This document shows positions 7,797 through 28,901 of a DNA stretch of 58,688 nt, piece by piece. Source of the stretch: a virus. Lineage: Duplodnaviria; Caudoviricetes. The notes below the pieces were generated by a model. It was not told where the DNA came from. It did not search any database and was given only the letters and a program-made list of their open reading frames with translations. The stretch lies in the IMG/VR virus record IMGVR_UViG_3300020125_000336, positions 1 through 58,688 of that record, one strand, 5' to 3'. Positions within the stretch are counted from its first letter, which is position 1. Each line of letters begins with the position of its first letter. A program made the translations under genes and the position numbers.

Positions 7797-8056
7797 AAAT
7801 TAAAATCAAAGTCACCGAGAGTGACATTAAATGGAGCAAGCTCGGGGACGGGGAATCCTGCCCTATCGCCCAAGCCATAACCAGGGCCGGATACAAGCCA
7901 AGTGCGGGATACTTCACGATCTACGCCACCTGCGCCAAAACCGGCAAGGTCTATAGCACGAGGACGCCGACTGAACTGACCAAGTTCATGAGGCGGTACG
8001 ACCATTACGAAACCGTGGAACCATTCAACACAGAACTTAAAATGGAGAAGAAATAA
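7793..8056 (+). CDS. paralog family member 3
   Basis: KIKIKVTESDI...SCPIAQAI...EPFNTELKM; TTG start overlaps the upstream stop. Confidence 0.85.
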   Translation: MKIKIKVTESDIKWSKLGDGESCPIAQAITRAGYKPSAGYFTIYATCAKTGKVYSTRTPTELTKFMRRYDHYETVEPFNTELKMEKK

Positions 8057-8589
8057 TGAGCGACCCAAAAGAACTGACAGAAATCAAACAGGAACAACTG
8101 ATGACGATCCTGAAGCTTGTCGAGGAAGGCAAGGTCACGTTCGTTCACACCGAAAAGCCAGATCGGCCAGTCGTCAACAAAGAGGAGTTGAAGCGGCTTT
8201 TTTGGAACACCAGCCAGCGACGGGCCAGTGAAGATCCGGTCAGGATGATCCGCATCCGGTGCGACCGGACAGTCAACCAGTGGGCTCTATACGATGAGCG
8301 CGGCAAAAAGGCCATCTCGCACTTCACTTGCGGGGTGATCAAGGACGCTACGCTGTCATCGAAGGAGATCCCGGCTGCTGGTTGCGGTGGGGCCGATTAT
8401 ATCGGCATGGCCAGTGGGGACATGATTAGCCCACGCCAGCCCCTCACGGTGCCGACGGGACAGGTTCACCGGCTTGTCTTTGACCGTTACGCCGGTCACT
8501 TCATTGACTCAGTGACACAGAACGAAATAACCCGCGTGGACTACCTGATCCTGAAGGAGGGTTGTCACGCCGAATATATACGCGCATGA
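8056..8589 (+). CDS. hypothetical protein
   Basis: TAATG-coupled ORF, 177 aa. Confidence 0.75.
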   Translation: MSDPKELTEIKQEQLMTILKLVEEGKVTFVHTEKPDRPVVNKEELKRLFWNTSQRRASEDPVRMIRIRCDRTVNQWALYDERGKKAISHFTCGVIKDATLSSKEIPAAGCGGADYIGMASGDMISPRQPLTVPTGQVHRLVFDRYAGHFIDSVTQNEITRVDYLILKEGCHAEYIRA

Positions 8590-8933
8590 GCACACCAAAC
8601 AAACTGATTGCCCTGCCAGAGTCGTACGAAAAGGATGCCCGTAAACTGTCCACGGACGTTCTAGCCAGCATAGCCGAAAGAGTCGAAGCCAAATCAGGGG
8701 AGCTGCACAAGCACTTGCTTAACCTGCTCGACGATCCCGACCGGCAAGGCACGTTCTGCGCTGACCTGTTCGCCCTGGGGACAATGGTCACGGCGCAAGG
8801 CGGGGACATGCATGACGCGGTATTCTCCATCCTGCTGCAATTCTGCCGGTTTATCGTTGCTCGTAAGCACAAGCTGATCACGGACGATCCAAAGGCCGAA
8901 ATCGAAAGGACACTGCATGCAAAACGAAACTGA
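8586..8933 (+). CDS. hypothetical protein
   Basis: ATGA-coupled start at 8586. Confidence 0.7.
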   Translation: MSTPNKLIALPESYEKDARKLSTDVLASIAERVEAKSGELHKHLLNLLDDPDRQGTFCADLFALGTMVTAQGGDMHDAVFSILLQFCRFIVARKHKLITDDPKAEIERTLHAKRN

Positions 8934-9303
8934 TCACAAGCTCTGGCGCGAAGGCAAAGGCCCCCAGGGGACCAAGCAGCCCGAAACCAAGGGTTGGCCC
9001 GAGGATAAATGGCCAGAGGGTTGGCCGGAAGCCGGGAGCACCGAGACGCCCGGGTATCTCACCTGGGAGGGGGAGCCCTACACGTTTAAACCGCTGTCGG
9101 GCGGCTACTGCGCCGTAAAGTGCTGCTCCTGGCAGAACTCCCGGCTGGAACGGGAATACCGGAACGAGATACACAACCGCAAGAAGCTCCTGGGGTCGCT
9201 CCGATGGGGTCGGCTCCGCGCCCTGGTCATTGGATGGGCGATAGCCAAGGGGCAAGACCCGGACGATGCGAAGCGGTTTGCCACGCATATCCAATACCAT
9301 TAA
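8917..9303 (+). CDS. hypothetical protein
   Basis: Short WPE repeats; last gene before the structured element. Confidence 0.6.
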   Translation: MQNETDHKLWREGKGPQGTKQPETKGWPEDKWPEGWPEAGSTETPGYLTWEGEPYTFKPLSGGYCAVKCCSWQNSRLEREYRNEIHNRKKLLGSLRWGRLRALVIGWAIAKGQDPDDAKRFATHIQYH

Positions 9304-9310
9304 AGCTCAT

Positions 9311-9428
9311 GGTGATGGCTAATGCTGAGTCGCTTTCAGCTGCGGGGGTAAGCCAGCGTTGGCGCACCCAAAAGGGTTAATCCCCCACTGGTGCTGAAGG
9401 CTGAGAACTTTAGCCATCACCTTTGTTT
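9311..9428 (+). ncRNA. candidate branched structured RNA, possibly also acting as a terminator
   Basis: 12-bp perfect inverted repeat 9311-9322/9410-9421 encloses a second stem (GCTTTCAGC/GCTGAAGGC), a G5/C5 stem and two apical hairpins; followed by TTTGTTT. Confidence 0.5.
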
Positions 9429-9509
9429 GCTATACATAGAACCTCTTTTGACATACATTGACAAGGAATAGACAACAGGCCGAAAGGCCACAACCAAAAG
9501 GAAAACACA

Positions 9510-10247
9510 GTGAAGAACCGAATTAAGTTGAGCGACTACTGGGACAAGAAGCAGGATGAAAAACCCAAAAAGGTGCAGGATATTATATCCGAGTTTGCCG
9601 CCATCAAGGATTTCACCGTCAAAATGATGGCGCATATCCTTGAGCCGATCAATCTGCCGCCCGACCAGCGGTTAGAGGAGTTCAAGAAGCGGCTGGAACC
9701 ACTGCGCGAGCAGCTAGAGGCGCATGGCCGAACCGTGGAAGGGCTGGCGGAGCAGATCAACGCCGCAAGTGTGCGGTGGGATGAAGTCATGAAGGAAAGG
9801 ACCGGCAAAACCGCGTGGCAGCACATTGCCGACTTTGACGGCGATGGCGCGGAAATTGCCAAGACTGCATTTGCGGAGTCCGTGGCCAATGTCATGGGCA
9901 AGGTATTTAAGGAGGAGGAGGACCGGAAGCCTGCCATGGTATCAATCGAGGTTAAAGGCGATGCCCCGCCAGCCCTGCGTCAGGCCCTGATGAAGGCGAT
10001 AGACAATGCGATTAAGGAAGCCACCAGCAGCCCCGGCAAGTCGTGGACGGGAAAGCAGCTGCACGAACTACTCAATCCCGACCAGTTGCGCGAGATGCGG
10101 AAGATCCTGCGGCAGGAAAAGCCCATGGAGGAGCGCACCAAGGAGCTACGGGCCATGCTCAAGACTGTGACGTTGCCGGATGGGCTCGACGCTGACTTCC
10201 TGGGGCACGCGCTGAGCCATCTTTGGCAGGAGGGAGAGCAGCTATGA
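9510..10247 (+). CDS. hypothetical alpha-helical protein
   Basis: 245-aa ORF; TTGACA sites upstream. Confidence 0.75.
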   Translation: MKNRIKLSDYWDKKQDEKPKKVQDIISEFAAIKDFTVKMMAHILEPINLPPDQRLEEFKKRLEPLREQLEAHGRTVEGLAEQINAASVRWDEVMKERTGKTAWQHIADFDGDGAEIAKTAFAESVANVMGKVFKEEEDRKPAMVSIEVKGDAPPALRQALMKAIDNAIKEATSSPGKSWTGKQLHELLNPDQLREMRKILRQEKPMEERTKELRAMLKTVTLPDGLDADFLGHALSHLWQEGEQL

Positions 10248-10444
10248 AGACGCGAACCACGTGGCAGAAGCTGCAAACCATGGATCGAGCACTATCGGAA
10301 AGCGGTTGCATCGCCTTTGCCGCTATCGATCAGCCTTTAGTGACTGAACTTTGTGAAATCATCGGCGCACTTTACCGAATTGCGGAAAGCTCGCAGATTG
10401 AATCAGTGCTGCGCGACAGCCTGACCAGGGAGTTGACGTTATGA
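10244..10444 (+). CDS. hypothetical protein (paralog of 11058..11282)
   Basis: ATGA-coupled start at 10244; AIDQPLVTELCEII resembles ALDQAIVDQLCDLI. Confidence 0.7.
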   Translation: MKTRTTWQKLQTMDRALSESGCIAFAAIDQPLVTELCEIIGALYRIAESSQIESVLRDSLTRELTL

Positions 10445-10468
10445 GCGACAAACCCCGGCAACGCATTT

Positions 10469-10657
10469 ATGAGGCTTAAAACCAGTCGAGAGCGCAAGGC
10501 GCAAGCCCGGGTAAGTTTCTTTGTTCCCGGGCGCAAGGCAGCGAGCATGAGCGGGGGGTTAAACAATTGCCGCCGGAAGCATCCGAAGTGGGAGATGATC
10601 ATGCGTTACGTGGAAGAGAGCGGGGTGAAGGGGACGCGGATCTGGCGGGTGAAATAA
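10469..10657 (+). CDS. small basic hypothetical protein
   Basis: C-terminal GTRIWRVK recalls small phage proteins; start uncertain. Confidence 0.55.
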   Translation: MRLKTSRERKAQARVSFFVPGRKAASMSGGLNNCRRKHPKWEMIMRYVEESGVKGTRIWRVK

Positions 10658-10710
10658 AGTTAAAACTGAGTGTTGACAAGGCATAGACGAAGGGATTAAA
10701 AACAGGGCGT

Positions 10711-11058
10711 ATGCAGCACTTACAAATCAGTGAACACGAGACCGAGATCACCGAGTTGGCGATCCAGACGGTCCTACATCAGCAGAGCATCAACGAACAG
10801 CGCAAGGGGACGGAGTTTTATCGGAAGCCCTATGATCTGGCGTTGCATATTGTTATGGCCCTCAAAGCGAGGGGTTTTAGAATCAGCGTCAGCCCGTTTG
10901 AGACGGGGACGGAGCGAGAGGTATTGTCCAGCATCCGCAAGAGTTTGCCGCTTGAGAGCAGGGACAGCGAGCATCTACAGGGGATGCATTTAGGCAAGCT
11001 GGGGATACGAACCAAGCAGGACGCCTTGCCCAAGGGTCTGCGAAGGAGGGCAGAATAA
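10711..11058 (+). CDS. hypothetical protein
   Basis: TTGACA at 10673 upstream; TAATG overlap with the next gene. Confidence 0.6.
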   Translation: MQHLQISEHETEITELAIQTVLHQQSINEQRKGTEFYRKPYDLALHIVMALKARGFRISVSPFETGTEREVLSSIRKSLPLESRDSEHLQGMHLGKLGIRTKQDALPKGLRRRAE

Positions 11059-11282
11059 TGAGCCGCAAAGCCGCCTCAGTGGAGGTTTACAGCGCCCTAA
11101 GCCTGTTGCGATTGGCCTTAATCGGCCAAGGGGCCATAATGGCATGCACTGCCCTGGATCAGGCCATAGTGGACCAGTTGTGTGACTTGATCGCAGTGCA
11201 GCACAAGGCTCTAAGGGAGATATACAGCGAGCAGGACATCGCCCAGGAGTTGCAGAGCATTTTAGAGCATCCAGAGCTTTAA
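11058..11282 (+). CDS. hypothetical protein (paralog of 10244..10444)
   Basis: Shares the AxDQxxVxxLCxxI motif. Confidence 0.7.
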   Translation: MSRKAASVEVYSALSLLRLALIGQGAIMACTALDQAIVDQLCDLIAVQHKALREIYSEQDIAQELQSILEHPEL

Positions 11283-11358
11283 GGGAGGGTGTAAGAGTGC
11301 ATCCGGCCAGTCAGGTGAAAGCCTTGACTGGCCTTTTTGCTGCCCTAACCTTGCCCAG

Positions 11359-11700
11359 GTGCCAAAACTGCTATTCACCACCGAGACAGCCAAGATCGCC
11401 GCCGACAAGAGCCGCGAAGCCCGACGCCTGAGAGCCGAAGCCCAAGCCAATGGATTCTCCGTGGAACCGGAGCCGGATAGGGCTTACGTCAGCTTGAGGG
11501 TCAAATGCGTGAGACGACAGATTGAGTCAGTCAACCGCAGGATAGAGTCAGAGTCCGATCCTATGCGCTTAGACCGGCTTGTCAACGCAGTGTATAGACT
11601 GACGGAGTTGGAGCGCGTACTGAGTGGTCGGCCCTTACCCGGTCAGCTGAAGCCCGTTGCTCAGAGGCAGGTCAGGCCAGAGGCGGAGCCGATCCGCTAG
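11359..11700 (+). CDS. hypothetical protein, possible terminase small subunit
   Basis: TTGACT-16-TAACCT promoter 7 nt before GTG; basic N-terminus, helical body and Pro-rich tail; function is a guess. Confidence 0.55.
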   Translation: MPKLLFTTETAKIAADKSREARRLRAEAQANGFSVEPEPDRAYVSLRVKCVRRQIESVNRRIESESDPMRLDRLVNAVYRLTELERVLSGRPLPGQLKPVAQRQVRPEAEPIR

Positions 11701-11991
11701 TCTCAAGTCAGAAGTCAGACGGGGGACGGTGAAGGCTTAAACTTCGCAAAACGTAGATTAGGTGTACAAGCATGCTTAATCGTCCGACCGTCCCCACACC
11801 CTGCCCCACCCGGCACCCAGTTTACGAAGGGATGGATCAGCGGGACTCCCAATTTACAGACAGGTCATCTTGGAAGATCTGAGACGGCTTCAAGACAGAC
11901 TTAGGCTATTGGGCACACGCCGCCCTTATTAGACGGGCGACTGCTTTTGCAGCCCCAGTGTCGGTCCTGATCCCTCACGGGCCTTTGCCGT

Positions 11992-12297
11992 TCAAAGCAA
12001 TGGCGCGGAGAACACTGGTTTAAGGCTTTCGAGTCGAGGGACGTTTCTTCGGGCGGCGGTGTTCGGTATCCCCCGGAGTGTCCGGAGGGTTCCTGAGACT
12101 GTTTCGTCCACGGTTGACCAAGGGCGGTTACGCCTTTGAGGATCGTTGGAGGGGCAGTCTTTGTCCGTCTTGGATTGCTTCTCTGAGTTCTGATCTGACT
12201 CGAAATTGGCGCTCCCATGTGTAACAGCGAGGTTTGCCCTCATTGTTGCTGGGCGTTGCCTAGGCGCTTGCAGCGGGAGCGTTAAACTGTCACACAT
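11992..12297 (-). CDS. hypothetical protein (doubtful)
   Basis: TTGACG-18-TAGAAG lies 6 nt before ATG 12297, but the product is low-information. Confidence 0.3.
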   Translation of the reverse strand: MCDSLTLPLQAPRQRPATMRANLAVTHGSANFESDQNSEKQSKTDKDCPSNDPQRRNRPWSTVDETVSGTLRTLRGIPNTAARRNVPRLESLKPVFSAPLL

Positions 12298-12342
12298 GCT
12301 CTTCTTCTACGCCACTCCCCCACGTTCCGTCAACACCTTACG

Positions 12343-12975
12343 TCACATTATCTTATCCAGCACCTTCTGCACCGTCTTGGCTATCGGCAACACCGGCTTG
12401 GGATAGCTGGTGAAATAATCAGGCGGCAAGTCGTCCAGCCTCGGATCACGCAGCAAACGCTTCAGGCCAGAGGCCACACAGAGCAGGCTGATCGGATGCA
12501 GCGCCCCCTGCGGCACCCACCATACATGCTTCTTGGGGTCCCACCAGCTGGCTCGAACCTCCCGGCCCTTCAGCCACCCACGAAAACAAAACACCGGAAT
12601 CTCCCCCGTCACCAGCACGTAGTAATGAGCCAGATTATCCGCCACCCGGGAACCATGCTGGCCATAAATGCACAGGTGCCCCGTGCTGTACTTGGTCCAG
12701 CGCACCTGCACGTTCGTCCCCAGGTCCGGACTGTGAAAACTCCCCGTCGCCCCGACCGGCTCCTTCAACTTGAAATAACGCTGGGCGGCTATCTCGGAGC
12801 CTTTGGATTGAATGTCCTGCTCCCGCCGCGCTACCTCCTGCTCCTCGGGGGTCCCGGCGAACGGGAACTTGTCCTTCAGGCCCCGGCGGATCGAGTCCTC
12901 CCGGCGCTCAATGCCCTGCTTTATAGCCAGCTCAATATCAGCCGTTACCAGCGTCCAGATTTCCGTCGAGTTCAT
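12343..12975 (-). CDS. phage protein with possible restriction-endonuclease-like fold
   Basis: GSEIAAQRY...PDLGTNVQVRWT...YVLVTG...RGW pattern resembles a variant PD-(D/E)XK core. Confidence 0.55.
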   Translation of the reverse strand: MNSTEIWTLVTADIELAIKQGIERREDSIRRGLKDKFPFAGTPEEQEVARREQDIQSKGSEIAAQRYFKLKEPVGATGSFHSPDLGTNVQVRWTKYSTGHLCIYGQHGSRVADNLAHYYVLVTGEIPVFCFRGWLKGREVRASWWDPKKHVWWVPQGALHPISLLCVASGLKRLLRDPRLDDLPPDYFTSYPKPVLPIAKTVQKVLDKIM

Positions 12976-13129
12976 CAGCTTCCTCCAGCAGTTTCACGTT
13001 TTTGATGTCACCGCTCATATTGGCGGCGTAACGCAGGGCGTCAGCCTGGATGTGGCGAACCGCGCGAATCGCCTGATCCACCCGGCCCACCACATCCAGA
13101 CTCAATACCCATTCTTCAGCCAGTCTCAT
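12938..13129 (-). CDS. hypothetical protein directly downstream of the periodic array
   Basis: ATG 13129 (MRLAEEWVLSLD...) begins where the 5-nt periodicity stops. Confidence 0.6.
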   Translation of the reverse strand: MRLAEEWVLSLDVVGRVDQAIRAVRHIQADALRYAANMSGDIKNVKLLEEADELDGNLDAGNG

Positions 13130-13133
13130 AACC

Positions 13134-13891
13134 AACACTTTACACGGCAACCCGGGCCACAGCCAACACAAAACCTGGCTTTACCGGCACGTTGCACAAC
13201 AGGGCCTCACTTCACCAGCACCAAACGCCACTTTACACGACTCTGCCGCTGCAAGACGGCCCTTCGCCTCACAATGCCCTTACGCCACGCCGCGAGCCGT
13301 CGCCAATACCCTGCCGCCCGTTGCCTCGCCTGCGCCTGACGGTCCCCCACATTGCCATGCCCATACTACGCCTCGCCTCGCCACACTTTGCCTTTACTCC
13401 ACGACACTCAACCATGCCGTGGCACCACAAAACCTTGCTTGCCAATACCTATGCAAAACCTTACTCAACTGTGCCAACGCTCCACCCCGCGCTGCCTGTG
13501 CTGCGCCGACTAGCCCATTGCCACTGCGCCACATGACTATACAAAGCCAGAGCGACCCATAACACGACTTCGCCCTGACGTTGCTTCACGATCCTGCGCC
13601 CTCACTGCACTTTCCATTACCATAACCCCACCTAACATAACTGTGCCATCGCATTGCCTCTGCCCCGCCACACATGCCCTCACCTCGCCCTGGCACTGCC
13701 AAACATGACCTTGCCATAGCAGCACGACACTTCACTCAGCCCGTGCTAAGCAAGACAGCACCGGCACAGTGCGCTACTACGCTATGCTTTGCCAGGACGA
13801 TACACTACAATGCTTTGCCCTTGCCTCACTCACCTATCCATTCCCATGCCGCAGCATGGCCTTCCTAAACTTTCCTTTACGTAACTATGCC
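13134..13891 (-). ncRNA. 5-nt-periodic repeat array (N-G-B-N-N)n in 28 GGY-initiated units; candidate guide-RNA array
   Basis: Hand parse of 758 nt gives 146 elements; G at position 2 in 145 and never A at position 3. Each unit starts GGC or GGT and ends in a 6-nt element, e.g. GGC AA AGC AT TGT AG TGT AT CGT CCT. Confidence 0.85.
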
Positions 13892-14577
13892 TTTGCCACC
13901 GTGGGCATTTCACTCCACGTGAACCGGCCATAGCCGCCTGAACGCCATTGGCCGGACCCCTTGTAATTGCCCATGTCCAGGCACTGCTTCACTAATTCAA
14001 GCGTTAATTCCCGCCACGCGGCGTAATCCTTTTTGCTCTGCGACTCGAATAGAACCACCTCGAACTCGCAGTACGAGCCTTCCTCCACGAACTCGCTCCG
14101 CGCCAGCGCCACGCGATCCCCGCGCAGCGTGGTCGCTCGCAATGGACGCTGCAAGGTGCCGTGCGGCTTCTCGATAATCTTGCCATTTTTGTCGAACAGA
14201 TAGACGCGCCGGGGATTCACATAGAGAGCCCCATCGCACGCCTTCTTGTAATTCCAAGGGTTCAACTTCTGCACCTCCCCCAGTTCGATCATCTGGCTGA
14301 CGCACTCCTTGAAAAAGCCGCGCCAGGTGTAATCCCACACGTGCAGCCCGGTTTTGTCCCGCTGAAAGACCGTGCTGCCCTTGGTGATTTGCTCGTCCAC
14401 CGGGACGGCGGCAATCTCCTCCTGCATCTTGATGGCCTTTTCGTCGGGGGTGATGTCGCCTTTGTAATCGGCGATTTTTGCGCTGATGAACTCCTCCTGC
14501 AATTCGGGATTGCCAGAAGCCGTCGCGAGAAACGGAGTCACAAACTCCGCCCGAACTCGCATTATGCTCTTTTTCAT
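13885..14577 (-). CDS. solo RAMP-superfamily (Cas7/Csm3-like) RNA-binding protein
   Basis: N-terminal strand MRVRAEFVTPFLA, helix DYTWRGFFKEC, thumb-like RPLRA...LARSEFVEEGSYCEFEVVL and C-terminal Gly-rich loop GSGQWRSGGYGRF; start moved to ATG 14577 (230 aa). Confidence 0.8.
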   Translation of the reverse strand: MKKSIMRVRAEFVTPFLATASGNPELQEEFISAKIADYKGDITPDEKAIKMQEEIAAVPVDEQITKGSTVFQRDKTGLHVWDYTWRGFFKECVSQMIELGEVQKLNPWNYKKACDGALYVNPRRVYLFDKNGKIIEKPHGTLQRPLRATTLRGDRVALARSEFVEEGSYCEFEVVLFESQSKKDYAAWRELTLELVKQCLDMGNYKGSGQWRSGGYGRFTWSEMPTVAKA

Positions 14578-14584
14578 AACTGAT

Positions 14585-14612
14585 ACTTTACACAATTATG
14601 AAAAGGAGGCAA
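14585..14612 (-). promoter_or_regulatory. promoter for the RAMP gene and array (leaderless)
   Basis: TTGCCT-16-TAAAGT with TG upstream of the -10 box, 7 nt before ATG 14577. Confidence 0.6.
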
Positions 14613-14624
14613 GCATTATTTTTA

Positions 14625-14764
14625 AGTTTTGGAGGCCCAGCTGTGGGACGGGCTTTACCGCCAGCGGCTGAACCGCAGTTAAATGCCTCCAAAACTCACC
14701 CGCAGCCGGTTCCCCGTCCACATGCCTTTCGGGCTGACTCAACGAGGATTACGGACTGCGGGTG
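14625..14764 (-). ncRNA. candidate structured RNA with two adjacent branched stem domains
   Basis: 12-bp inverted repeat 14625-14636/14685-14696 and 9-bp inverted repeat 14697-14705/14756-14764, each enclosing inner stems; G-U pairs favour the minus strand. Confidence 0.45.
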
Positions 14765-14782
14765 CCCAGGACCAAACCACCC

Positions 14783-14820
14783 AACAAAACCCTCATGCCA
14801 GCGATGACACACCGTGAGGG
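14783..14820 (-). terminator. possible intrinsic terminator
   Basis: Minus-strand hairpin CCCTCA..GTGTCA/TGGCAT..TGAGGG followed by TTTTGTT. Confidence 0.45.
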
Positions 14821-14902
14821 CGGCGGTGACGAAATAAGGCCCGTGGAAACAGTGAACCCAAAACCCCGTGCCATGTCGCGCTCGACTGGCTTACGCTAAA
14901 TG

Positions 14903-15202
14903 TTACGGAGTGGGGGTCGGCGGAGCGTCCGGAACCAGATCATCCACCACCTGGGCCTGGACCAATAAATCGGCTACCGCCTGTTGCAGTTCCGGGGTGA
15001 CGGTGCCGCCAGCGGCGATCTGCGCTTGCAGGTCTTTGATCATCTGGAGCAGGTTCCCGCTTTCGGTGCCAATCTTCACGAGTTGGGCGATAACGGTGCG
15101 GAGTTGGGTTGTGATTTCAGCTTGTGTTGCCATAATTTTATGCAGGTGTTCATCAACTATTTTGAAGTAACCTAAAACCAGTTCTTCAAACTTGACTTTC
15201 AT
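14903..15202 (-). CDS. coiled-coil hypothetical protein
   Basis: Heptad-like helix with a Pro-rich tail. Confidence 0.7.
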   Translation of the reverse strand: MKVKFEELVLGYFKIVDEHLHKIMATQAEITTQLRTVIAQLVKIGTESGNLLQMIKDLQAQIAAGGTVTPELQQAVADLLVQAQVVDDLVPDAPPTPTP

Positions 15203-15392
15203 TCGTTGCAGTGTACGTCTCTTCCATCACTTTGGCACGCACTTTCTTTGCGCAAAAGATTTCCTCCACCCGCTTCAAGCCGCTTTCCCCGGGCGTGGGC
15301 TCGTGGAAGATGGTATTGCCCTTGGCTATGCCCCTGCGCCACTCCCGCAGCGCCTTCTGGTAGCGGAGAAGTTTATGCAGCGCGGTGGCCAT
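15186..15392 (-). CDS. hypothetical protein
   Basis: Start moved to ATG 15392 (MATALHKLLRYQK). Confidence 0.6.
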   Translation of the reverse strand: MATALHKLLRYQKALREWRRGIAKGNTIFHEPTPGESGLKRVEEIFCAKKVRAKVMEETYTATNESQV

Positions 15393-15675
15393 TGTCGTGG
15401 ATCTTCCGAATCTGGCCGATGCGCTGCCGGGTGACGTTGAACTTCCGGGCGATGTCCGAATCGCGCATGCTCCAATCAATCTTGTCAGGGTTCACCTTGA
15501 CGGTGCTCTTCCAACGGCTGTCACTCCAGGGAACGCGCCTGCCGTCTTTGCGATGGTAGCCGCGTTTGATCAGCCAATAGCGCGTGGTGGCGTAATTTCG
15601 CCGGAGCCTCCGTGCCGCCTGGTGAACGGAGAGTCCTTTGGGCAGATTGTTAATCAGGTTGTTCCAGGCGATCAT
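15373..15675 (-). CDS. double-HTH DNA-binding protein
   Basis: LSVHQAARRLRRNYATTRYW and DSDIARKFNVTRQRIGQIR (sigma region-4-like HTH). Confidence 0.8.
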   Translation of the reverse strand: MIAWNNLINNLPKGLSVHQAARRLRRNYATTRYWLIKRGYHRKDGRRVPWSDSRWKSTVKVNPDKIDWSMRDSDIARKFNVTRQRIGQIRKIHDNGHRAA

Positions 15676-15977
15676 GTCAGTCTGACTGGGACCGATCTAT
15701 CGTTTCCGATTATCGGCTCCATGGGCACAGTTTTAAATTCAGCCAGCTTCCGGCCCAGTTTCGGAATCCGGCCATCAATCAATCCGCTGGCCTGGACCCG
15801 GCACTTGTCGGCTTCGTCGCGCTTTCGCTTGGCATCTACTTCATATCCGTCCATTTTGAAAAGCTGCGACGCAGAATAATCGAGGCCCTCAGCCCGTTCC
15901 AAGAGCGTTCGGGCTTTTGCTTTGCAGTGGTCAATTTCTTCTTCGATTTCCTGGGATGTTTCATATCGGCGTTTCAT
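15672..15977 (-). CDS. hypothetical helical protein
   Basis: TTGACA-18-TAGCGT lies 6 nt before ATG 15977. Confidence 0.75.
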   Translation of the reverse strand: MKRRYETSQEIEEEIDHCKAKARTLLERAEGLDYSASQLFKMDGYEVDAKRKRDEADKCRVQASGLIDGRIPKLGRKLAEFKTVPMEPIIGNDRSVPVRLT

Positions 15978-16022
15978 TCTTTTACGCTACGGCTCGGCAC
16001 TGGAATCTGTCAAGGTTCGGTT

Positions 16023-19000
16023 TTAGAACTTTTCCGGAGTCATCCTTTCTGGCTCCATTTTCTCTGGTGCCATCCTCTCAGGCTCAATTCGTTCTTTATC
16101 TTCTTTGGCGTAAACATCGCTGGAGATACGCGCTCCGGTGGACCCAGCCATTGTCGCACCCAGCGCCTTCAGTCCCTTGAGCCATTTGTTGGCATCCTCG
16201 GGCGACATTCCTTGATTGATCCAAAGCTCTTTAATCCCCTCTTCAAGCGGGATCGGGGCGAATTGTTCCATGAGATATTCAGACCAATCGTAAGGCTTCT
16301 CTCCGCGCAACCGCTGCGAACGTGGCACCGGCTCGTTGCTCCATGGCATCGGGCGATTGGCAAAGTCCTGGGCTGTTAAAACATCACTCACCACTCCGCC
16401 GAACGGGCTCAGTTTCTGTCGAGCGTAACGGCCCAACGATTCGCTCGCGGCATCCGAACGTTGGGTCAGTTTTTCATACTTTGTGCGATCCGTCCTGAGC
16501 ACGTGAAGCAACTGCGCGAATGCCCTCACGATGCCGATAATGGGGCTGACGATCTTCGCCTCGGCACCGAATGCTTTGAACGCCATAAAATCTCCCCGGC
16601 GAGCATTCCAATCCGGGTCCAGAATTGGGGCGTTGATCCGCTGCTTGCTGCCCTGCCAGCTGAGAATGGCTTGATTGGCGATCAGCAGTCCAATGTAAGT
16701 CCCCACCACCGCCGCCTTCTCTTTGACTTGGTGCATCACGAACTGCTTTTCAACCGGCGTAATTTCATTGGGCCTGGTTTGCCATTTGATGCCCAGGTCC
16801 ATGGCTTTAACCGTATCACCCAGCAGCCATCCCCAGCGGGACAACTCCAGGCGCGGAGCAAATAGACTGACGTTGGCAAGCCCGGTGAAGATGCCCATGT
16901 TGGCTCTTGAAAAGCCGGTGGCCTTGTTCACCGCATCCGCCACCATCCTGGCCATTTGAACATTAGGCTCAATCCTCACGCCGTCTTTAGTTTTGACTTC
17001 GATCTGCGTCAGGGCGGGGTCCATGTTGTCCCAAATCTGATTAAACCTGGCCTGTCGGAATTCCTTCAGCGCATCGAACCCTCGTTGCCCCATGTCCGTA
17101 AGTTGTTTCCATCCTTTGGATACCCCGGTCAAGGGCTTGATCAACTCCAGCTGTTGCAGCTGGTAATCGTCAAAGTAATGGAACGGGTCATTGGCCAGTC
17201 CGGCGCGCCGAGCCAAATGATAATTGTGATCGTTACGCAGCAACTGCATCGCCGTGATGTGGGATTTCTCATTCATCGAGAACTTCCACTGATGCCAAAA
17301 GCTGGGCCAGTAACCATGCGCATCGCCATTAACATCTTTGAAATACCACGTGTGCAGGTTGAACATGTTCAGCCCAGCGTGCGTGATCATCCCCACTGCG
17401 CCGTGGCCGGTAATCTTCGCCGCAAACATGAAGCGCGGGATCTTCTTGAAGAACAGCTTCCACGTTGGCAGCGCCTGCTCCTCAATCCAGCGCTTTGCCG
17501 CCGCTCGCATCCGGCGCAGCTCTGAATTCTTGCGCCACATTTCCATCGTGCTCTGGCGCATCGAGTCGGACTCGTTCAACAACTCCGTGATCTTCCTGGC
17601 GCTGACACCTTTTTCATCAGCAATGACCTGAATAATAGTGTCCAGTTCCATGTCGCCTTGATCCATTAATTCACGGGCTCGCTTGCGAACCGATCTCGGC
17701 GTCAGTTCGGTCATTTCCGCGATCTTCTTTTTGCGCTTGGCTTCTTCCTTCTCAAATTCCTCGCGCTTAACCTTGATGTTCCCTGGCTTTCCGGTTCCTG
17801 TTTTAACCGTCCCGGGCTTCTCTGTGGTCCCGTACATCTCTTCTTCCAGGCGCTTCTGCTCAGCCGCCTCGTCCAGCTTGGTGGCCTCGCCCAATTGGTA
17901 ATCAACCGCATCGTTGGCCTCCTGGGCGTTCTCCTGAGCCTGCTGAACTGACTTGGCAATCTTTTCTGCCTTGTCGGTCTGCTTTGGCGTAAATTCCTTC
18001 CACTTGCCCGTTGTGGGATCGTAGGTGATTTCTTTGAAGTACCGGGAAATATCCGTGAACGTTCCAGTGTCCAAGTCAATTGCGCCCTGCTGCGCTTCAC
18101 CGGCTGCGTGCCACACCGTTTGCATCGGTTTGCTGGCTTCATCCCACTGAACCGCTTCATCGTAAGTCGGCTTCCAATCTGGCGCATCTTTGCCACGGGA
18201 CAGTTCAATCTTACGAGCCTGGGAAAACTTCTGCTCCGCCTTGGCCCGGACAACAGCGATCATATCTGCGCTGATGTCTTTGCCTCCACTGTCGGCAAAT
18301 TTCTGAACTGCCTTCTCGGCGGCTTGCGGATCAGTCGCCAGCAAATCACGGCCACGTTGCACGGCTTTGCGCCACGTCGTTCCTTCACCCGGAGGAACTG
18401 GTTCAGTGAATCCCATCCTGGCTCTCCACTCACGCAACCTCGCGGCGATGCCGTAAAGGTCTTTGGCTGGTTCTTGCGTCAATGACTTCAACGTGGTGGG
18501 CGGAACGGGCGGGACATCGGGCGGCTTGCCTTTGCCACCACCCGGCAGCAGCACGGACCCCTCCTGAAAACGCAGCGCTCGCTTGGCTTTCATCTCCGCC
18601 AGACGCTGGATAGCTGCGTCACGGGTCATGCCTTCGGGTATGATGAAATGGAAGTTGTCGGCTTTGGCCAGCTTCCTGATTGCCTCACGCCAGTTGCCGC
18701 CAGCGGCTTTGACCACTCGCTCGATTTCAGGCACGAACTTTTCGGCCCTATTTGACTTACCGGCTGCTTGTGCAGTAGGCTCACTTATGGCTGGCGATCC
18801 TGAGGGTGGTTCAGCACCCTCAGTTATAGCCGAACCCTCTGCTGTCGCCGCTGGAGGCACAGGTCTTGTCTGTGAAGTTTCCCCTGGCTCGCCCGGGGGA
18901 AGCTTTTCCTGTCGCGGCAAATTCTTCAGCGCTTCGCTGGCTGCATCCATGTCAGAGATCGCCTTCTTCAATTGCCCCGGGCTGCGCGATCTTATCTGCT

Positions 19001-22000
19001 CAAACATGTTGCCCACTTCCGCCATTACATCTTTCGATGCTTCCGGCGAAACCTGAGCTTCTCGCTGAGCGCTATCGCCACCGCCTGTTTCTGCGGGTAG
19101 CCGCTGTGCCTCAGTTCCGATATGTTCTGGCTGACCACCTTTTTGCTGCTGCCCTTCTTTAATGGCATCTTGTTGTCCTTTCAGTTCACCGTGTTCTCTT
19201 AAAAATTTGATCCTTTGAGCAGCATCTTCCAGCGCCTGCTTGTTCTGCCTTTCAGCCCTCAACTTCTCGTTGAGCTTGTTCATCTTGGCCACGATGTTCG
19301 GAACCTCATTGGGCTTGGCGGCTTTGGCCTGCGCCGTGAGCCGATCCATCTGTGCCTGGAGATCTTTTATCTTCCCCTCATCGCCTTGAGGAAAGATGGC
19401 ACCAGCCTCGCGGCGATTGCGACCATAGGAAAATCGGGATGTGCTGCCACCTATTCCGCCACCGGGTTTTTTTGGTTCATCCTCGGGAGGAGGCTTGTTG
19501 ATGTTGCGCTCGATCCAATCCTCGATCTTCTTTCTCTGCCAATTAGTCATCTCGGTCTTTTCCAGCTCACCGCTCTGGCGAAGAATGGTGGCGATATAGC
19601 CGGGGGCCATTTTGCCCTTCATGTCATCAAACCAGCGCGTGGGGTCCTTGGGGTCATGCTTTAGAGCGAACCTTAATTGGTTATCGGCGTCCTGCCGGAT
19701 GAATTCTTTCAAATCGACGCCCCTGCCCTCGAACGTTGATCTGCCACGCACAGTTTTCAGGTAAGCTGTAATGTGCTCGTCAGGAGTTTCTGCCTCCTTT
19801 TCCTCTTCTGCGTACAAATCTTTGGGGATTTCCGGTTTGCTCTTTCTGAGGCGTTCAACCTCTGCCTTTTCTTCGGCTGAAAGTTCTTTCCGCTCAGGTC
19901 CAATTTGCTGGTCTATCCAGTCGTAGATGGAATCACGATGCTTTTTGAACATCACGTTTTTCCTGACCCACCCCGTCATGCGCATGGACGCCGCCAGCTT
20001 TTCTCTATTGGCCTTAGTTTGTTCCGGCGTGGCCATTTGGTTAGTGGTCATCCGATCCAATACTGAAACTGGATCTTTACCAAGATCGCCTGACAAACTT
20101 TTCACGTTGCCTTGCGCAAGTTCCATCAACGTTGGTATGGGGCCTTCTTGAAATCTCAACCGAACTCGGCTCTTGAAACTCCCTGGTCCTTCATACTGAT
20201 GGAAGTTGAGAATCTGCTCAGGCAGCCTGCCTTTTTGAGAAGCATATTCAGACTCTCCTTGCTGGAGCTTGGTCTGCTGCTGAAACTCATCGGAGTACTG
20301 GTCAAGGACATCGTTTATGGAATCCAGCAACTGTTTCCGCTGTGGTGTAAGCGTTTCATCACTGGCCAGACGGGCGGCTTCATCTCGAATCTTATTGGCC
20401 TCGAAGCGAGCGCTGGACACGTCGCCTTCTTTCAGGAACTGCTCCACTACGGCGAACGAGGTTTGCAGGCGTGGTGGCAATCTTTCAATGCCTTCGCGCC
20501 GTGGAAGTGGCGGGGCATCGGAGGGCCGGTCACGGATCGCAGTTATGTCGTGGCCAAGGTGGTAGCTCTTTTCCGTGCCGCCGCCCTTGTAAGTAATTTC
20601 AAACGGATGCTTTCCAACTTCCGGTGTGTGCGTGGCCTTGGCACCGGCAATAACTTTGCCTTTCTCGTCCACCATTAGCACGTGTGGATCAGCCAAGTCC
20701 CGAATGTCACGAGTGGCGTCAGGTTTAATTTCCAGATATGTGCCGTCTGGCTGCTTGTCAGCAAGAATTATCTTGCCGCCAGATCTCCTGGCTTTCGTGA
20801 TCGCTTCTACAGCCTTTCCAGAAATAAACACCACTGCATGCGGATCTCCCGAAATGTCATTTTTTGGCATTCCAACACCCGGTGGCCTGGAGAATCCACT
20901 TAGTCGCGTGGTTCGGCCACGTTCATCCATCATGTACTGGATTCCCTCAGAGGTGACGAACCCAGTTTGTCCAGCCACTGGCGGCTTGGTGGGCTTAATC
21001 GCCTCCCGTTCAGCCTCCACGGCCTTCTTTTTCTCCCGACGCTTATCCGCCGCCTCCTTAGCCTCGGTCACCTGCTGTTGCTTAATGGTGATGTCCCGAA
21101 TCTCCGCGAGATTCTTGTTCAGAGTTTTCTTATAATCTCTGATGAAACCAGCGACGGTGAGCTGAGGTGCGCCTTCCGCCCTGGCAAAGTTGGCGTCAAT
21201 TACCCGATCTTCCAGCTTCTTGCGATCAGCCAGACGAGTTTGGATAGCCTGATTCTCACGCAGTAGTTTTTGCTTTCTGGACTCCAGCCGTGGATCTGAA
21301 CGACCAATGGTTTCAAGCCTGGCTGTTTCAGCAGCTTCTGTGGCGGCAGCAGCTTTGGCATCCGCCACTCTCTTTGCTTCTGCTTGAGTTTCAGTCAGAA
21401 GTTCTTCAGGAATCGGAGTTGCCGCGCCCGTGGCCGGTTTTACTGGTGGCTTGGGCTCTTGTGGCACTGTGACTCCGCCTTCAGCTCGCGGTGGCTCTCG
21501 AAGTTCAATGGGAGGCACACTGCCTGGAGGGCTCCAGGGGCCTAAGGCTGGCTGCCCCATTGGGCCTGGCCTTGGAATAGTTGGACCAATCGGTTGGTCA
21601 TAACCAATTGGAATATTCGGCCCCAGCATTGGACCGGACGCTGGAACTGATGGCGGCATCCTTAATTGCTCACCCCACGAACCCTGGTAAGGACCAGCGC
21701 CAATTTGATCAGGTCGGGGCAAAAGCCGTCTCTCCTGTTCCGGTTGTGTTAGCGGTGTTGGCAGGGCTGGTGGCGCAAAAGGAAACTGCTGTGGCTGTCC
21801 AGTTCCGGTGAGACCGATGCGCGGCGGCGGAGCCTTTGGTTCAAGTCCGTAAATGTCCGGTCTTTGAGTCAGGTCCGTGCTGCCCTTGAGCAACGGGGAT
21901 ATTTCCGACATCGCTCCACCCAGCGTGAACCCGGTTGCTGTCACGCCATCGGCAATCAGTTTGGCGATCAGTTTATTGTCACGCTTTTCTGGTGGCTTGC

Positions 22001-22532
22001 CTGATTCCTCACCCAACTTCGTGGCGATCTCTGGAACTTCCTTCCCCATTTTGTAGGTGAAGTAGGCAATCAACGCCTTTTGGATTGGCGCAGAAACTCC
22101 GCCGATGCCAAGGGTTGAAAGTCCAAATGGCGACATCAACGTGTCCAGCGTCCCCACCGCGCTCTCCGCTACGCCTCCGCCAATATCCTCTACCAGCTGC
22201 TGCCCTGGTGTCGGCGGCTTGCTCAGTTGCAGGTTTGGCTGATATGCCGGGGCAACTCCCGAAATGGGCTGGAGGGAACGGGAAAGGTTAAGGCTGATTG
22301 GTCCGGTCTGCTCGCCTATTGGTTTGGGTGGGATCAGCGGCGTCGGCGGAACTGGCTGGACCTGCTCCTCCAATGCGCCTGCGTAAGGGCCACGGAAATA
22401 AGCGCCTTTAAACCCCTCGATTATGGATGGATCGATTAACGTCCTGGGAGGTGCCACGTCCTCTGGGCCACCGAAGTCAGGAAGCTTTGGCTTTTCTGCT
22501 ACGGCTGTGTCCCCGAAATCGGGTAGTGGCAT
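16023..22532 (-). CDS. very large putative internal virion/DNA-ejection protein (2169 aa)
   Basis: Size, Pro/Glu/Lys-rich low-complexity linkers, coiled coils and position at the end of the short-tail operon. Confidence 0.65.
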
Positions 22533-27666: not shown

Positions 27667-28901
27667 GGTATCTTAACGTTGCTTATCTTGAGGTTTCTGG
27701 CGGTGATCTTGGTGGGCAACGGCGGGTCCTGAGCCGTCACAAGTGGGTGAGGGTAAACCAGTGTTACCACTTGGGCAGGCACGAGATTGCTGAAATAAAC
27801 ACCGTTTCCCATATAGGCATCCGTGTTGTATCCTGGCTGCGGGATTCCGTCGTACGTGGTTCCGTTGCACACGTTCCCCCATATCCAATAGTTGGTTATG
27901 GGGTCGTAAATGGTTCCCGTGAACCAACTGCTTGTCGGGTCGATATCCTCCTCATGAAAGTAGATTCCAAGACTGCTGGCCGTTCCCGTGACGATGTTCG
28001 AGAACAGCAATCCGGACCCGGCGCGAGCGGTGATGAATTGCACCCCGCTGCTCAATCCGGTGCAGGTAAATGTGTTGCTGTAGATATTAAGCACGTAAGT
28101 GCCACGAGGGGTGGCTGGATTGGATGGAACACCCTGGTTGCCATGACACTCAAAGAATTGTGGGGCGCTGCTGTTGACCGTGATGTTTACATTGAAAGAC
28201 GAGTGCCTGACCACGTATCCGCCGCCATCCTGGGCGGAGAACATGATATTGGGTCCACTCCCGCTGCTGTCGAATGTGTTCCAAATCCCCACGTTGGATT
28301 CATAGACCATTGAATTAGTGCTCGCAAAGTCGGGCGGGAACCACGCCGTATTTGTCCTGACCCACCATTCCTCCACCGGGGTTGAGCTTTCGCTGGTCGA
28401 AGAGGTGGGGGAAATTGTCCTGGCAAACCTGTTGCAGTCAACAACAGTGCAGTGATCCACTACGCCAGCGCACCCGTTATAAAATGCGAATCCGCCGCCT
28501 GGGGACGACCCGTTGAAGTTCTGAATCCAGCAATGGTCTATGCGAGCCCTGCTGTTGGTGGCGCACCAAATGTGCATACAGTCGCTATTGTCGGACGGCC
28601 CAAGGAATTTTATTCCGCTTACACGCACTATTCCTGACCCGCTTAACTGGATCTGAACAGCTTGTCCGTTGCAGGTCACAATGGTGCTGTTGGTGCCTGC
28701 GCCTATCACAGAGAGGTGTTTTGTGATGCTTAAGGTAGAGGCCCACGTGACAGAACCCGCTGGGACATTAACCGTGTCCCCGTCGTTCATACCGTTTACG
28801 GCATTCTGAACCGTGCTCAGGTTGGCGTTGGGACAATTGGTCGTCGCCGCGTCAACGCTCAAGCACGCCAATCCAATCAGAATCGAGGTGATGGTTTTCA
28901 T
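27663..28901 (-). CDS. signal-peptide parallel beta-helix (pectin-lyase-like) protein
   Basis: VQNAVNGMNDGDTVNVPAG cap, RIDHC/VDHC repeats and C-terminal YPHPL. Confidence 0.8.
   Translation of the reverse strand: MKTITSILIGLACLSVDAATTNCPNANLSTVQNAVNGMNDGDTVNVPAGSVTWASTLSITKHLSVIGAGTNSTIVTCNGQAVQIQLSGSGIVRVSGIKFLGPSDNSDCMHIWCATNSRARIDHCWIQNFNGSSPGGGFAFYNGCAGVVDHCTVVDCNRFARTISPTSSTSESSTPVEEWWVRTNTAWFPPDFASTNSMVYESNVGIWNTFDSSGSGPNIMFSAQDGGGYVVRHSSFNVNITVNSSAPQFFECHGNQGVPSNPATPRGTYVLNIYSNTFTCTGLSSGVQFITARAGSGLLFSNIVTGTASSLGIYFHEEDIDPTSSWFTGTIYDPITNYWIWGNVCNGTTYDGIPQPGYNTDAYMGNGVYFSNLVPAQVVTLVYPHPLVTAQDPPLPTKITARNLKISNVKIP

What the first reader, a model, noticed from the sequence alone, without database searches (positions are those of the whole stretch)
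13134..13891. Two-level grammar of the array: pentamers nested in 21/26/31-nt units with a one-base phase slip
A hand parse of the minus strand gives 146 elements, with G at position 2 in 145 and no A at position 3. A 6-nt element ends each unit, and the next unit always restarts with GGC (23 times) or GGT (5 times), followed by a purine in 25 of 28 cases. Unit lengths are 5n+1: mostly 21, 26 or 31, with one 11 and one 41. An example is GGC GA AGT CG TGT TA TGG GT CGC TCT | GGC TT TGT AT AGT CA TGT GG CGC AGT. The variable positions differ between units, so this is not a simple satellite, and period 5 does not fit codon structure. Inference: the slip plus GGYR marks guide boundaries (processing or filament restart), giving about 28 separate short guides.
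Basis: partly seen in the sequence, partly recalled or inferred. Interest (0 to 1): 0.9.

Follow-up and report, generated by a model that had tools for sequence, protein, structure and literature searches.

The report
Phage VIPR guide-RNA array, staggered type
The odd five-base rhythm is real and marks the guide-RNA array of a phage VIPR system, a CRISPR-like RNA-guided DNA-silencing system first described in 2026 preprints, here in a form made of many very short guides joined by one-base shifts.

Summary
On the minus strand of 13134-13891 a neutral parse gives 146 elements (119 pentamers, 27 hexamers, no tetramers). G is at position 2 in 145 of 146 and A is never at position 3, far beyond 500 shuffles. 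Each +1 slip sits at xGG(C/T), and unit lengths are 5n+1, mostly 21, 26 or 31.

The array starts at the stop codon of a 230-aa gene. Its predicted fold is a Cas7/Csm3-like RAMP, and its glycine loop aligns with the SUSP1 Vipr protein. Of 80 distant homologues in viral contigs, 76 carry a G-periodic 5.1-5.2-nt array on the same strand.

This matches VIPR systems (bioRxiv 10.64898/2026.04.26.720920), including their "staggered" arrays and YNNNG-type repeats, so it is a new member of a known kind.

The reading of about 28 separate short guides is partly supported. A 93%-identical protein sits beside a completely different array. Homology blocks between related arrays tend to break near the slips. 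A unit of about five repeats matches one turn of the published DNA-bound filament.

Processing and targets remain unshown. No RNA run was listed, and decoded-target searches gave only chance-level hits.

The parts
13885..14577 (-). vipr gene: 230-aa RAMP (Cas7-like) protein, ATG at 14577, stop TAG at 13887-13885
   Evidence: Translation is. There are no Pfam, PHROG or PADLOC hits. The search found 71 homologues. The AlphaFold2 model has pLDDT 88.4. The best Foldseek PDB hits are type VII Cas7 and type III Csm3, at E 3.5e-8 and below and TM about 0.5. The family profile hits type VII Cas7 at E 4e-4 and a chain named 'SUSP1 Vipr protein' at E 0.77 over the glycine loop. The same stretch aligns to the phiSUSP1 ORF in a one-sequence search.
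13130..13892 (-). vrRNA array: about 150 NGBNN pentamers in 28 units of 5n+1 nt, filling the whole gap between the vipr stop codon and the ATG of the next ORF at 13129
13847..13892 (-). first, atypical unit of 9 A-rich pentamers that overlaps the last vipr codons; possibly a leader
13358..13393 (-). example unit (7 pentamers): xGGCAA AGTGT GGCGA GGCGA GGCGT AGTAT GGGCA, followed by the next xGGCAA
12938..13129 (-). downstream 63-aa ORF. It is a neighbour only: no homologue next to other vipr genes except in the identical contig L081
12343..12975 (-). downstream 210-aa ORF (phrog_18407, unknown function). It is a neighbour only and is not conserved beside other vipr genes

Best explanation
This is a phage-encoded VIPR (Viral Interference Programmable Repeat) locus consisting of a Vipr RAMP protein gene followed directly by its vrRNA array. 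Inferred mechanism, taken from the published type II systems: the array is transcribed with or after vipr. Vipr protomers bind one per pentamer, holding the fixed G (position 2) and the non-A base after it and exposing the variable bases. The filament uses those bases to recognise double-stranded DNA of a competing phage or mobile element and silence it. What is particular here is the array form. Only the first repeat of each unit is a canonical GGY/NN; the rest are NGB/NN. After 4-7 repeats the register restarts one base later at xGG(C/T), so that one G closes the old register and its neighbour opens the new one. There is no 3' tail. I read each 5n+1 unit as one short vrRNA module of about one turn of the DNA-bound filament, giving about 28 modules. 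Rough odds: VIPR array 0.9; units are separate functional modules 0.55-0.6.
For: SHOWN HERE.
(1) The grammar is real.
(2) The adjacent protein is a RAMP by predicted fold. Its G-loop aligns with SUSP1 Vipr: GVGDWRP-RFGRF against the family consensus GlGQWRsgGyGRF.
(3) Gene and array are linked. Of 80 loci fetched from 525 viral-contig relatives at 34-41% identity, 76 have a period-5.1-5.2 array with power above 12. In none of those 76 was the periodic base C or T, so all lie on the gene strand. By the parse, 59 arrays are downstream, 17 upstream, 1 on both sides, and 3 score below 30.
(4) The +1 slip is a family trait. Unit lengths in 78 arrays are 26 (282), 31 (271), 36 (148), 21 (131) and 41 (124). 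With equal penalties there are 1443 hexamers against 290 tetramers.
(5) The array turns over much faster than the gene. Against L082 the vipr gene is 634/695 nt identical, but the array matches in only 218 of 442 alignment columns.
(6) Only vipr is shared among the neighbourhoods: it is found in 82 loci, while every other window ORF is found in at most 5.
(7) The array RNA has no unusual fold: z -1.8, with 1 of 20 shuffles folding as well.
(8) Breakpoints of homology blocks cluster near slips.

FROM PAPERS.
Sections read of 10.64898/2026.04.26.720920 describe the following: Vipr is an ancestral RAMP; vrRNAs are 9-16 YNNGG repeats; NN pairs with DNA under a 1-nt skip; alternative YNNNG, NNNGG and NNNNG repeats exist; staggered arrays exist.
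Results read of 10.64898/2026.04.26.720927 describe the following: one protomer binds per repeat; the DNA-bound filament has five subunits and about 25 nt of vrRNA per turn; G1 is read by H17 and D177, G2 by R138 and W178, and Y3 by a pocket of the next protomer.

INFERENCE.
Q replaces D177 in this family (Q210 is nearly invariant), which fits the loss of the first G.
Against: No transcript, processing site or Vipr-RNA complex was observed for this locus or this clade, and no RNA run was listed. No target was found. There was no self-match above a shuffled-order control. There was no enrichment of the 1-nt-skip rule in 795 kb of related loci: 51 hits against 64 for the reversed control. Pattern scans returned chance-like hits only. 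A unit of five repeats specifies only 10 bases under the published NN rule, which looks too little for unique targeting. Sequence similarity to SUSP1 Vipr is weak (E 0.77 PDB-wide) and tblastn did not find phiSUSP1. The canonical GGY is absent from most repeats: G at position 1 in 25 of 119 pentamers. The breakpoint windows were chosen, and breakpoints from related arrays are not independent. I could not see Fig. S17, Fig. S18 or the data files of the preprint, so equating this array with the 'staggered' type rests on the legend text alone.
Confidence: 0.8

Rival explanations
1. This is a VIPR array, but it is not 28 separate guides. The transcript, or long multi-unit pieces of it, carries one nearly continuous Vipr filament, and the extra base about once per helical turn is a hinge or strain-relief bulge. 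Target specificity comes from several adjacent units read together.
For: A single unit gives only 8-14 specified bases under the NN rule. The mean unit is 5.2 repeats, close to the 5 subunits per turn of the DNA-bound filament. No tail or obvious processing signal beyond GGY was found. The staggered architecture is not among those the preprint reports as confirmed by sRNA-seq.
Against: Units, or small blocks of units, are reshuffled among related arrays, with breakpoints near slips. The base before GG changes with the neighbouring unit. The preprint legend speaks of 'individual processed vrRNAs'. Windows of 7 consecutive pentamers that ignore slips found nothing above control in local data, although that database was small.
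Confidence: 0.2
2. It is a DNA-level element, such as phased protein-binding sites, a centromere-like site or bent DNA. The period of 5.19 bp is half a helical turn.
For: 5.19 x 2 = 10.4 bp, which is close to the DNA helical repeat (the helical repeat is established knowledge).
Against: Composition is strongly strand-asymmetric: G 307 against C 129. The array is on the vipr coding strand in all 76 of 80 loci where it is detected. The partner protein has an RNA-binding RAMP fold. The non-integer period resolves into exact pentamers plus discrete +1 slips.
Confidence: 0.03
3. It is an RNA sponge or decoy for another periodic RNA-binding protein (TRAP-like or CsrA-like), or a template for some other enzyme.
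For: The period-5 spacing of short G-containing triplets recalls TRAP sites (recalled knowledge, not tested here).
Against: No such protein is encoded nearby. Only the RAMP gene is conserved beside the arrays. There were no Rfam matches and no reverse transcriptase or comparable domain in the neighbours scanned.
Confidence: 0.02

Closest known systems
VIPR type II systems (Escherichia phage SUSP1, P. fulva prophage); bioRxiv 10.64898/2026.04.26.720920 and 10.64898/2026.04.26.720927 (Results, Discussion and some Methods sections read)
   Same: Both have a small RAMP protein encoded in a phage with no cas genes. Both have an intergenic pentanucleotide array on the gene strand, with a fixed G-containing trinucleotide and variable dinucleotide. 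The G-loop motif G-x-W-R...G-R-F aligns. Arrays differ sharply between close relatives.
   Different: In phiSUSP1 the period is exactly 5.0. Each vrRNA is a long in-phase run of GGT/NN followed by a tail of about 40 nt, and a second gene (vap1) lies between vipr and the array. Here the period is 5.19. Runs are 4-7 repeats long, only the first repeat of a run is GGY, the register shifts by +1 between runs, there is no tail, and no accessory gene is conserved. Q replaces the G1-reading D177.
'Staggered vrRNA arrays' and YNNNG-type repeats of other VIPR types (same preprint: Fig. S18 legend and the type-classification method; figures and data files not seen)
   Same: The legend describes vrRNAs derived from positions overlapping by 1 nt, where the end of one marks the start of the next. 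Here the first G of each GG closes the upstream register and the second G opens the downstream one. In the preprint's register the repeat here reads (C/T/G)NNNG.
   Different: I could not check whether their example belongs to this Vipr clade, or whether unit lengths of 21, 26 and 31 are reported. By the text read, that architecture was not confirmed by sRNA-seq.
Non-canonical VIPR-like arrays found by a genomic language model (bioRxiv 10.64898/2026.10.21.760802; passages read)
   Same: They are period-5 arrays next to Vipr-like folds, with motifs such as WGT/NN or TGH/NN. These are close to the NGB/NN seen here and the NGH/NN seen in the family.
   Different: Those clusters are described as repeating 10 times. 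No register slip is mentioned in the passages read.
Class 1 CRISPR Cas7 backbone on crRNA
   Same: Both have a RAMP fold. Both have one protomer per fixed RNA step, with a thumb that breaks pairing periodically (as described in the paper).
   Different: Cas7 uses a 6-nt step with 5 paired bases and repeat-spacer arrays with cas genes. None of that is present here.

Membership tests
VIPR system | A Vipr protein: a RAMP fold (RRM core, glycine-rich loop, thumb) encoded outside a CRISPR-cas locus | tested here: met
   The model has pLDDT 88.4. Top Foldseek hits are type VII Cas7 and Csm3 at E down to 3.5e-8. The profile hits Cas7 at E 4e-4 and 'SUSP1 Vipr protein' at E 0.77 over the G-loop only. 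No cas domains were found in the 30 window ORFs scanned. Sequence similarity to the founding Vipr is weak.
VIPR system | An adjacent intergenic array of tandem pentanucleotides with a fixed trinucleotide and variable dinucleotide, on the gene strand | tested here: met
   G is at position 2 in 145 of 146 elements, and positions 4 and 5 carry 0.06 and 0.05 bits. The same holds in 76 of 80 related loci.
VIPR system | Canonical GGY in every repeat | tested here: not met
   Position 1 is G in 25 of 119 pentamers. GGY is regular only at the 27-28 unit starts. The preprint allows 'a related consensus' including YNNNG, so this bears on the type, not on membership.
VIPR system | Variable positions hypervariable between close relatives while the scaffold is kept | tested here: met
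   Against L082 the gene is 91% identical (634/695) and the array matches in 218 of 442 columns, with G and GGCAA retained. Only one informative close relative was available, because L081 is identical to the window.
VIPR system | Encoded mainly by viruses or proviruses | tested here: met
   The tool calls the window a virus record. There are 525 relatives in viral contigs. The exact-word protein scan of genome contigs found none.
VIPR system | vrRNA is expressed and co-purifies with Vipr | not testable with these tools
   No RNA run was listed. The four runs laid are DNA contigs identical to the window.
VIPR system | Variable bases match natural DNA targets under the 1-nt-skip rule | tested here: inconclusive
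   There was no enrichment in 795 kb of related loci or in the phage's own genome. Only 2 of 28 units were tried, as contiguous NNN 18-mers.
VIPR type II (SUSP1-like) | 9-16 in-phase GGY/NN repeats followed by a conserved structured 3' tail, plus vap1 | tested here: not met
   Runs are 2-9 repeats, mostly 4-6, and there is no tail between units. The fold z-score is -1.8. No neighbour gene is conserved. The phiSUSP1 control shows period 5.0 and tails.
VIPR staggered array | Successive vrRNAs abut with a 1-nt overlap or offset, so that the end of one marks the start of the next | tested here: met
   All 27 slips are +1 and fall at GG. This compares with the legend text only; the figure was not seen.
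CRISPR array | Direct repeats of about 25-40 nt alternating with spacers, with cas genes | tested here: not met
   TRF finds no such array in the window, and no cas domains were found.

The most novel reading that the evidence does not exclude
In this Vipr clade the recognition code itself differs from the published one. The first G of GGY has been freed: Q replaces the G1-reading Asp, and position 1 carries 0.03 bits. Each repeat may therefore present three contiguous variable bases (YNNNG). A one-turn filament of 4-7 protomers would then read 12-21 bases of DNA, possibly as unbroken triplets. On this reading, dozens of ultra-short one-turn guides packed head-to-tail, with a shared GG junction serving as both stop and start signal, would be the smallest RNA-guided DNA-recognition modules known.
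Probability: 0.2. Interest if true: 0.7.

Novelty: new member of a known kind. Interest (0 to 1): 0.4.

Why it matters
VIPR was proposed in 2026 as a phage-borne relative, and possibly a forerunner, of CRISPR that reads DNA through a gapped pentamer code. Everything tested at the bench so far, in the sections I read, concerns long tailed vrRNAs (type II) and a few other types. This soil-phage locus and its hundreds of relatives are a clean, large example of the untested staggered form. It has no tail and no conserved accessory gene, it has units of about one filament turn, and its first G is relaxed. It therefore gives a concrete system for asking three things. How is a filament started and stopped without a tail? 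How short can a working guide be? Does the third variable base take part in recognition?

Tried and rejected
Rfam gave 0 matches in the window at gathering thresholds. ARAGORN found 0 tRNA or tmRNA genes.

Blastn of the array region against the phage collection found no match.

Single-protein scans of viral contigs with the two flanking proteins found no relatives. The same kind of scan of genome contigs found none. The alignment-based scan was needed.

Sequencing runs: no RNA holder was listed. Six DNA runs labelled soil or rhizosphere metagenome were listed. The four laid gave contigs identical to the window with no indels or joints, so they say nothing about array variation or processing.

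Target decoding:
(a) Spaced-word search of all arrays against 795 kb of related loci, hits against reversed-word control. NN skip0: 78 vs 58. NN skip1: 51 vs 64. NN skip2: 53 vs 49. NNN skip0: 16 vs 19. NNN skip1: 9 vs 8. The excess for NN skip3 and NNN skip2 includes matches to arrays left unmasked, such as L081.
(b) Own genome: the best-site mismatches equal those of the shuffled-order controls under five rules.
None of those 119 matched more than 4 of the 6 skip positions.
(d) The NNN 18-mer of the same unit gave 0 hits in IMG/VR. It gave 12 taxonomically scattered hits in genome contigs, none extending to the handle triplet.
(e) The NNN 18-mer of a second unit gave 5 mutually unrelated hits.
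Only 2 of 28 units were scanned and only exact matches are found, so this does not test the code.

Stop-triplet depletion in the NNN reading (z -7.8 and -5.4) is probably general CTAG and TA avoidance. CTA, TAG, TAA and TTA are depleted, but TGA (1.08) and TCA (1.10) are not.

A test for sense/antisense coherence of the NN dinucleotides gave r = 0.059 at lag 1 within units and about 0 elsewhere, too weak to use.

Protein-coding was rejected. A period of 5.19 cannot hold a frame, and only spurious ORFs of 58-62 aa lie on the array strand.

The promoter and terminator scan gave counts no higher than shuffles.

Full report
THE OBSERVATION.

On the minus strand, the 755-nt gap between the stop codon of ORF 13885-14577 and the ATG at 13129 is filled by a G-rich tract (G 307, T 171, A 151, C 129). 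The power spectrum of G peaks at period 5.19, 44.5 times the mean. In the whole 58,688-base window, all 28 sliding windows with period-5.0-5.3 power above 9.6 start within 13126-13801.

A dynamic-programming parse rewarded only G at position 2. It splits 13134-13891 into 146 elements: 119 pentamers and 27 hexamers. G is at position 2 in 145 of them and A is never at position 3. With equal penalties for +1 and -1 slips the result is unchanged: 27 hexamers and 0 tetramers.

The parse score is 103.5. In 500 composition-matched shuffles it has mean 23.6, sd 5.5 and maximum 39.5. Every slip is at xGG. At 28 slips the GG is followed by C 19, T 7 and G 2, then a purine in 22 of 28, then A/T and G. 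Unit lengths are 26 (9), 31 (7), 21 (7), 36 (2), 11 (1) and a long first unit.

WHAT SITS NEXT TO IT.

The ORF that ends where the array begins (230 aa from the ATG at 14577) has no Pfam, PHROG or PADLOC match. It has 71 homologues, all without a functional name. With a 49-sequence alignment AlphaFold2 gives a confident model at pLDDT 88.4. The best matches in the PDB are type VII Cas7 and type III Csm3 backbone subunits (E 3.5e-8 and below, TM about 0.5).

The family profile finds type VII Cas7 at E 4e-4. At E 0.77 it finds a chain deposited as 'SUSP1 Vipr protein', matched over the glycine-rich loop.

GENE AND ARRAY TRAVEL TOGETHER.

An alignment-based scan of viral contigs found 525 relatives, and 80 loci were kept (34-41% identity). 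In 76 of the 80 a period-5.1-5.2 signal with power above 12 lies beside the gene. The periodic base is always G or A on the gene's strand, never C or T. By the parse, 59 arrays are downstream (median gap 21 nt), 17 are upstream, 1 is on both sides and 3 score below 30.

The two-level grammar is a family trait. In 78 arrays the unit lengths are 26 (282), 31 (271), 36 (148), 21 (131) and 41 (124). With equal penalties, +1 slips outnumber -1 slips 1443 to 290.

None of the window's other ORFs within 8001-19600 has a homologue in more than 5 of the other loci, whereas vipr is found in 82. The unit of inheritance is therefore the gene plus the array.

WHAT IT IS.

A literature search led to bioRxiv 10.64898/2026.04.26.720920. 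I read its Results, Discussion, three Methods sections and the figure-legend passages. It describes VIPR systems as follows.
- A phage-encoded, roughly 20-kD ancestral RAMP (Vipr) sits beside vrRNAs made of 9-16 YNNGG pentamers, in which GGY is fixed and NN is hypervariable.
- The NN bases pair with double-stranded DNA while skipping every third target base.
- The natural targets are competing phages and satellites.
- There are seven types, with alternative NNNGG, YNNNG and NNNNG repeats.
- Array architectures include ribozyme-interspersed arrays and 'staggered arrays with overlapping vrRNAs'.

The legend of Fig. [quoted passage not shown]

In the window, the first G of each GG is in register with the upstream pentamers and the second G with the downstream ones. 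This is that arrangement as far as the words go. I could not see the figure. In the preprint's register the repeat here is (C/T/G)NNNG.

A second preprint (10.64898/2026.10.21.760802, passages read) reports Vipr-linked period-5 arrays with motifs such as WGT/NN and TGH/NN. The locus is thus a member of a kind already in print, first dated April 2026.

CONTROL WITH THE FOUNDING SYSTEM.

I fetched phiSUSP1 and applied the same tools. Its vrRNAs have a period of exactly 5.0. They are long in-phase runs of GGT/NN, each followed by a tail, with a second gene between vipr and the downstream array.

The family profile aligns with the phiSUSP1 ORF over the G-loop: GVGDWRP-RFGRF against the family consensus GlGQWRsgGyGRF. 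The structural preprint (10.64898/2026.04.26.720927, Results read) assigns recognition of the first G to H17 and D177. It assigns the second G to R138 and W178, and the pyrimidine to a pocket in the next protomer.

In the family studied here W and R are kept, but Asp is replaced by a nearly invariant Gln (Q210). The first G of the repeat is also free (0.03 bits). That correspondence is my inference from a short alignment, not a tested result.

ARE THE UNITS SEPARATE GUIDES?

Evidence in favour:
- L082 encodes a 93%-identical protein (the gene is 634/695 nt identical). From the stop codon onward its array shares only the scaffold, matching in 218 of 442 alignment columns.
- Related arrays share some units and not others, in different orders.
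- Among 72 distinct arrays, I took homology-block ends beyond which the next 25 nt are less than 50% identical. These fall near slips. Block starts lie within -7 to 0 of the slip G in 43 of 69 cases (null 0.24). Block ends lie within -1 to +8 in 45 of 67 (null 0.30). Those windows were chosen.
- A symmetric statistic gives a mean distance to the nearest slip of 8.63. The null is 10.94 with sd 0.74, and 1 of 2000 random sets did as well. The breakpoints come from 32 related loci and are not independent.
- In 140 near-identical unit pairs the base before GG differs in 27%. The other positions differ in 1-8%.
- The mean unit is 5.2 repeats. The published DNA-bound filament has five protomers and about 25 nt of vrRNA per turn.

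Evidence against, or missing:
- No RNA data exist for this locus.
- By the text I read, sRNA-seq confirmed only the ribozyme-interspersed and single-vrRNA architectures.
- Five repeats specify only ten bases under the NN rule.

TARGETS.

There were no self-matches above order-shuffled controls under five rules. There was no enrichment of any rule in 795 kb of related loci. Contiguous NNN 18-mers from two units gave 0, 5 and 12 unrelated hits.

Intrinsic codon-signature tests were negative or too weak to use. Only 2 of 28 units were scanned and only exact matches are found, so the code for this clade remains open. No host could be named.

MECHANISM, WITH STATUS.

Shown here:
- The grammar is real.
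- A RAMP-fold gene is linked to the array in cis, on the same strand, across a wide viral family.
- The array turns over fast and in a modular way.
- The array RNA has no unusual fold (z -1.8).

Taken from the preprints for other types:
- One protomer binds per pentamer.
- The fixed bases are flipped into the protein and the variable bases are presented to DNA.
- The outcome is transcriptional silencing of rival elements.

Inferred for this locus:
- Each GG(C/T) start nucleates or delimits a filament of 4-7 protomers.
- The neighbouring G ends the previous filament.
- The result is about 28 short modules.

VERDICT.

The system is a new member of a known, very recently described kind. The residual interest lies in the untested staggered, tail-less, short-unit form and in whether the third variable base is read.

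Noticed in passing
window 16023-22532 (-): A 2169-aa ORF about 1.4 kb upstream of vipr on the same strand has no Pfam or PHROG match. Most large ORFs of this 58.7-kb virus record are equally unannotatable: of the 30 ORFs scanned, 5 had any PHROG hit at the thresholds used, and all 5 were of unknown function or weak.
   Followed up: partly
window 29442-29869: There are tandem repeats of 75 nt (2.7 copies) and 60 nt (about 2 copies) inside ORF 28901-30115 (-). They are probably a repeated protein domain.
   Followed up: no
L063:6373-6638; also period-4.5 signals in L028, L029, L058: An 18-nt tandem repeat of 14.8 copies with 87% matches lies a few hundred bases downstream of the VIPR array in a related viral contig. 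The same period-4.5 spectral signal appears in three other related loci. An 18-nt period is the spacing quoted for TIGR arrays in one preprint, but these copies look nearly uniform. Unexplained.
   Followed up: partly
L081:~230-284 and L082:~750-802 (upstream of vipr): The roughly 50 nt before the vipr start codon are identical between the window lineage and L082. Further upstream is a partly alignable stretch, and beyond it the flanks differ completely. This suggests that the gene-plus-array module, with its own leader or promoter, sits in different contexts.
   Followed up: no
L060:3413-5108, L025:2860-4385, L001:3464-6212: Some relatives carry much longer arrays (328, 295 and up to 536 parsed elements). 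L001 has periodic sequence on both sides of the gene.
   Followed up: no
family-wide unit profile (78 arrays): The last repeat of each unit is also semi-conserved, so the junction reads G-C-A-A-N-G-G-C-A-N-W-G. GCA(A) stands on both sides of the GG. This may be a start/stop or processing signal.
   Followed up: partly
window 12900-14700 in public runs X1-X4: Contigs identical to the window, with no differing letters, occur in four runs labelled soil or rhizosphere metagenome, from four studies dated 2017 and 2025. This phage lineage, including its array, therefore appears stable across samples.
   Followed up: partly
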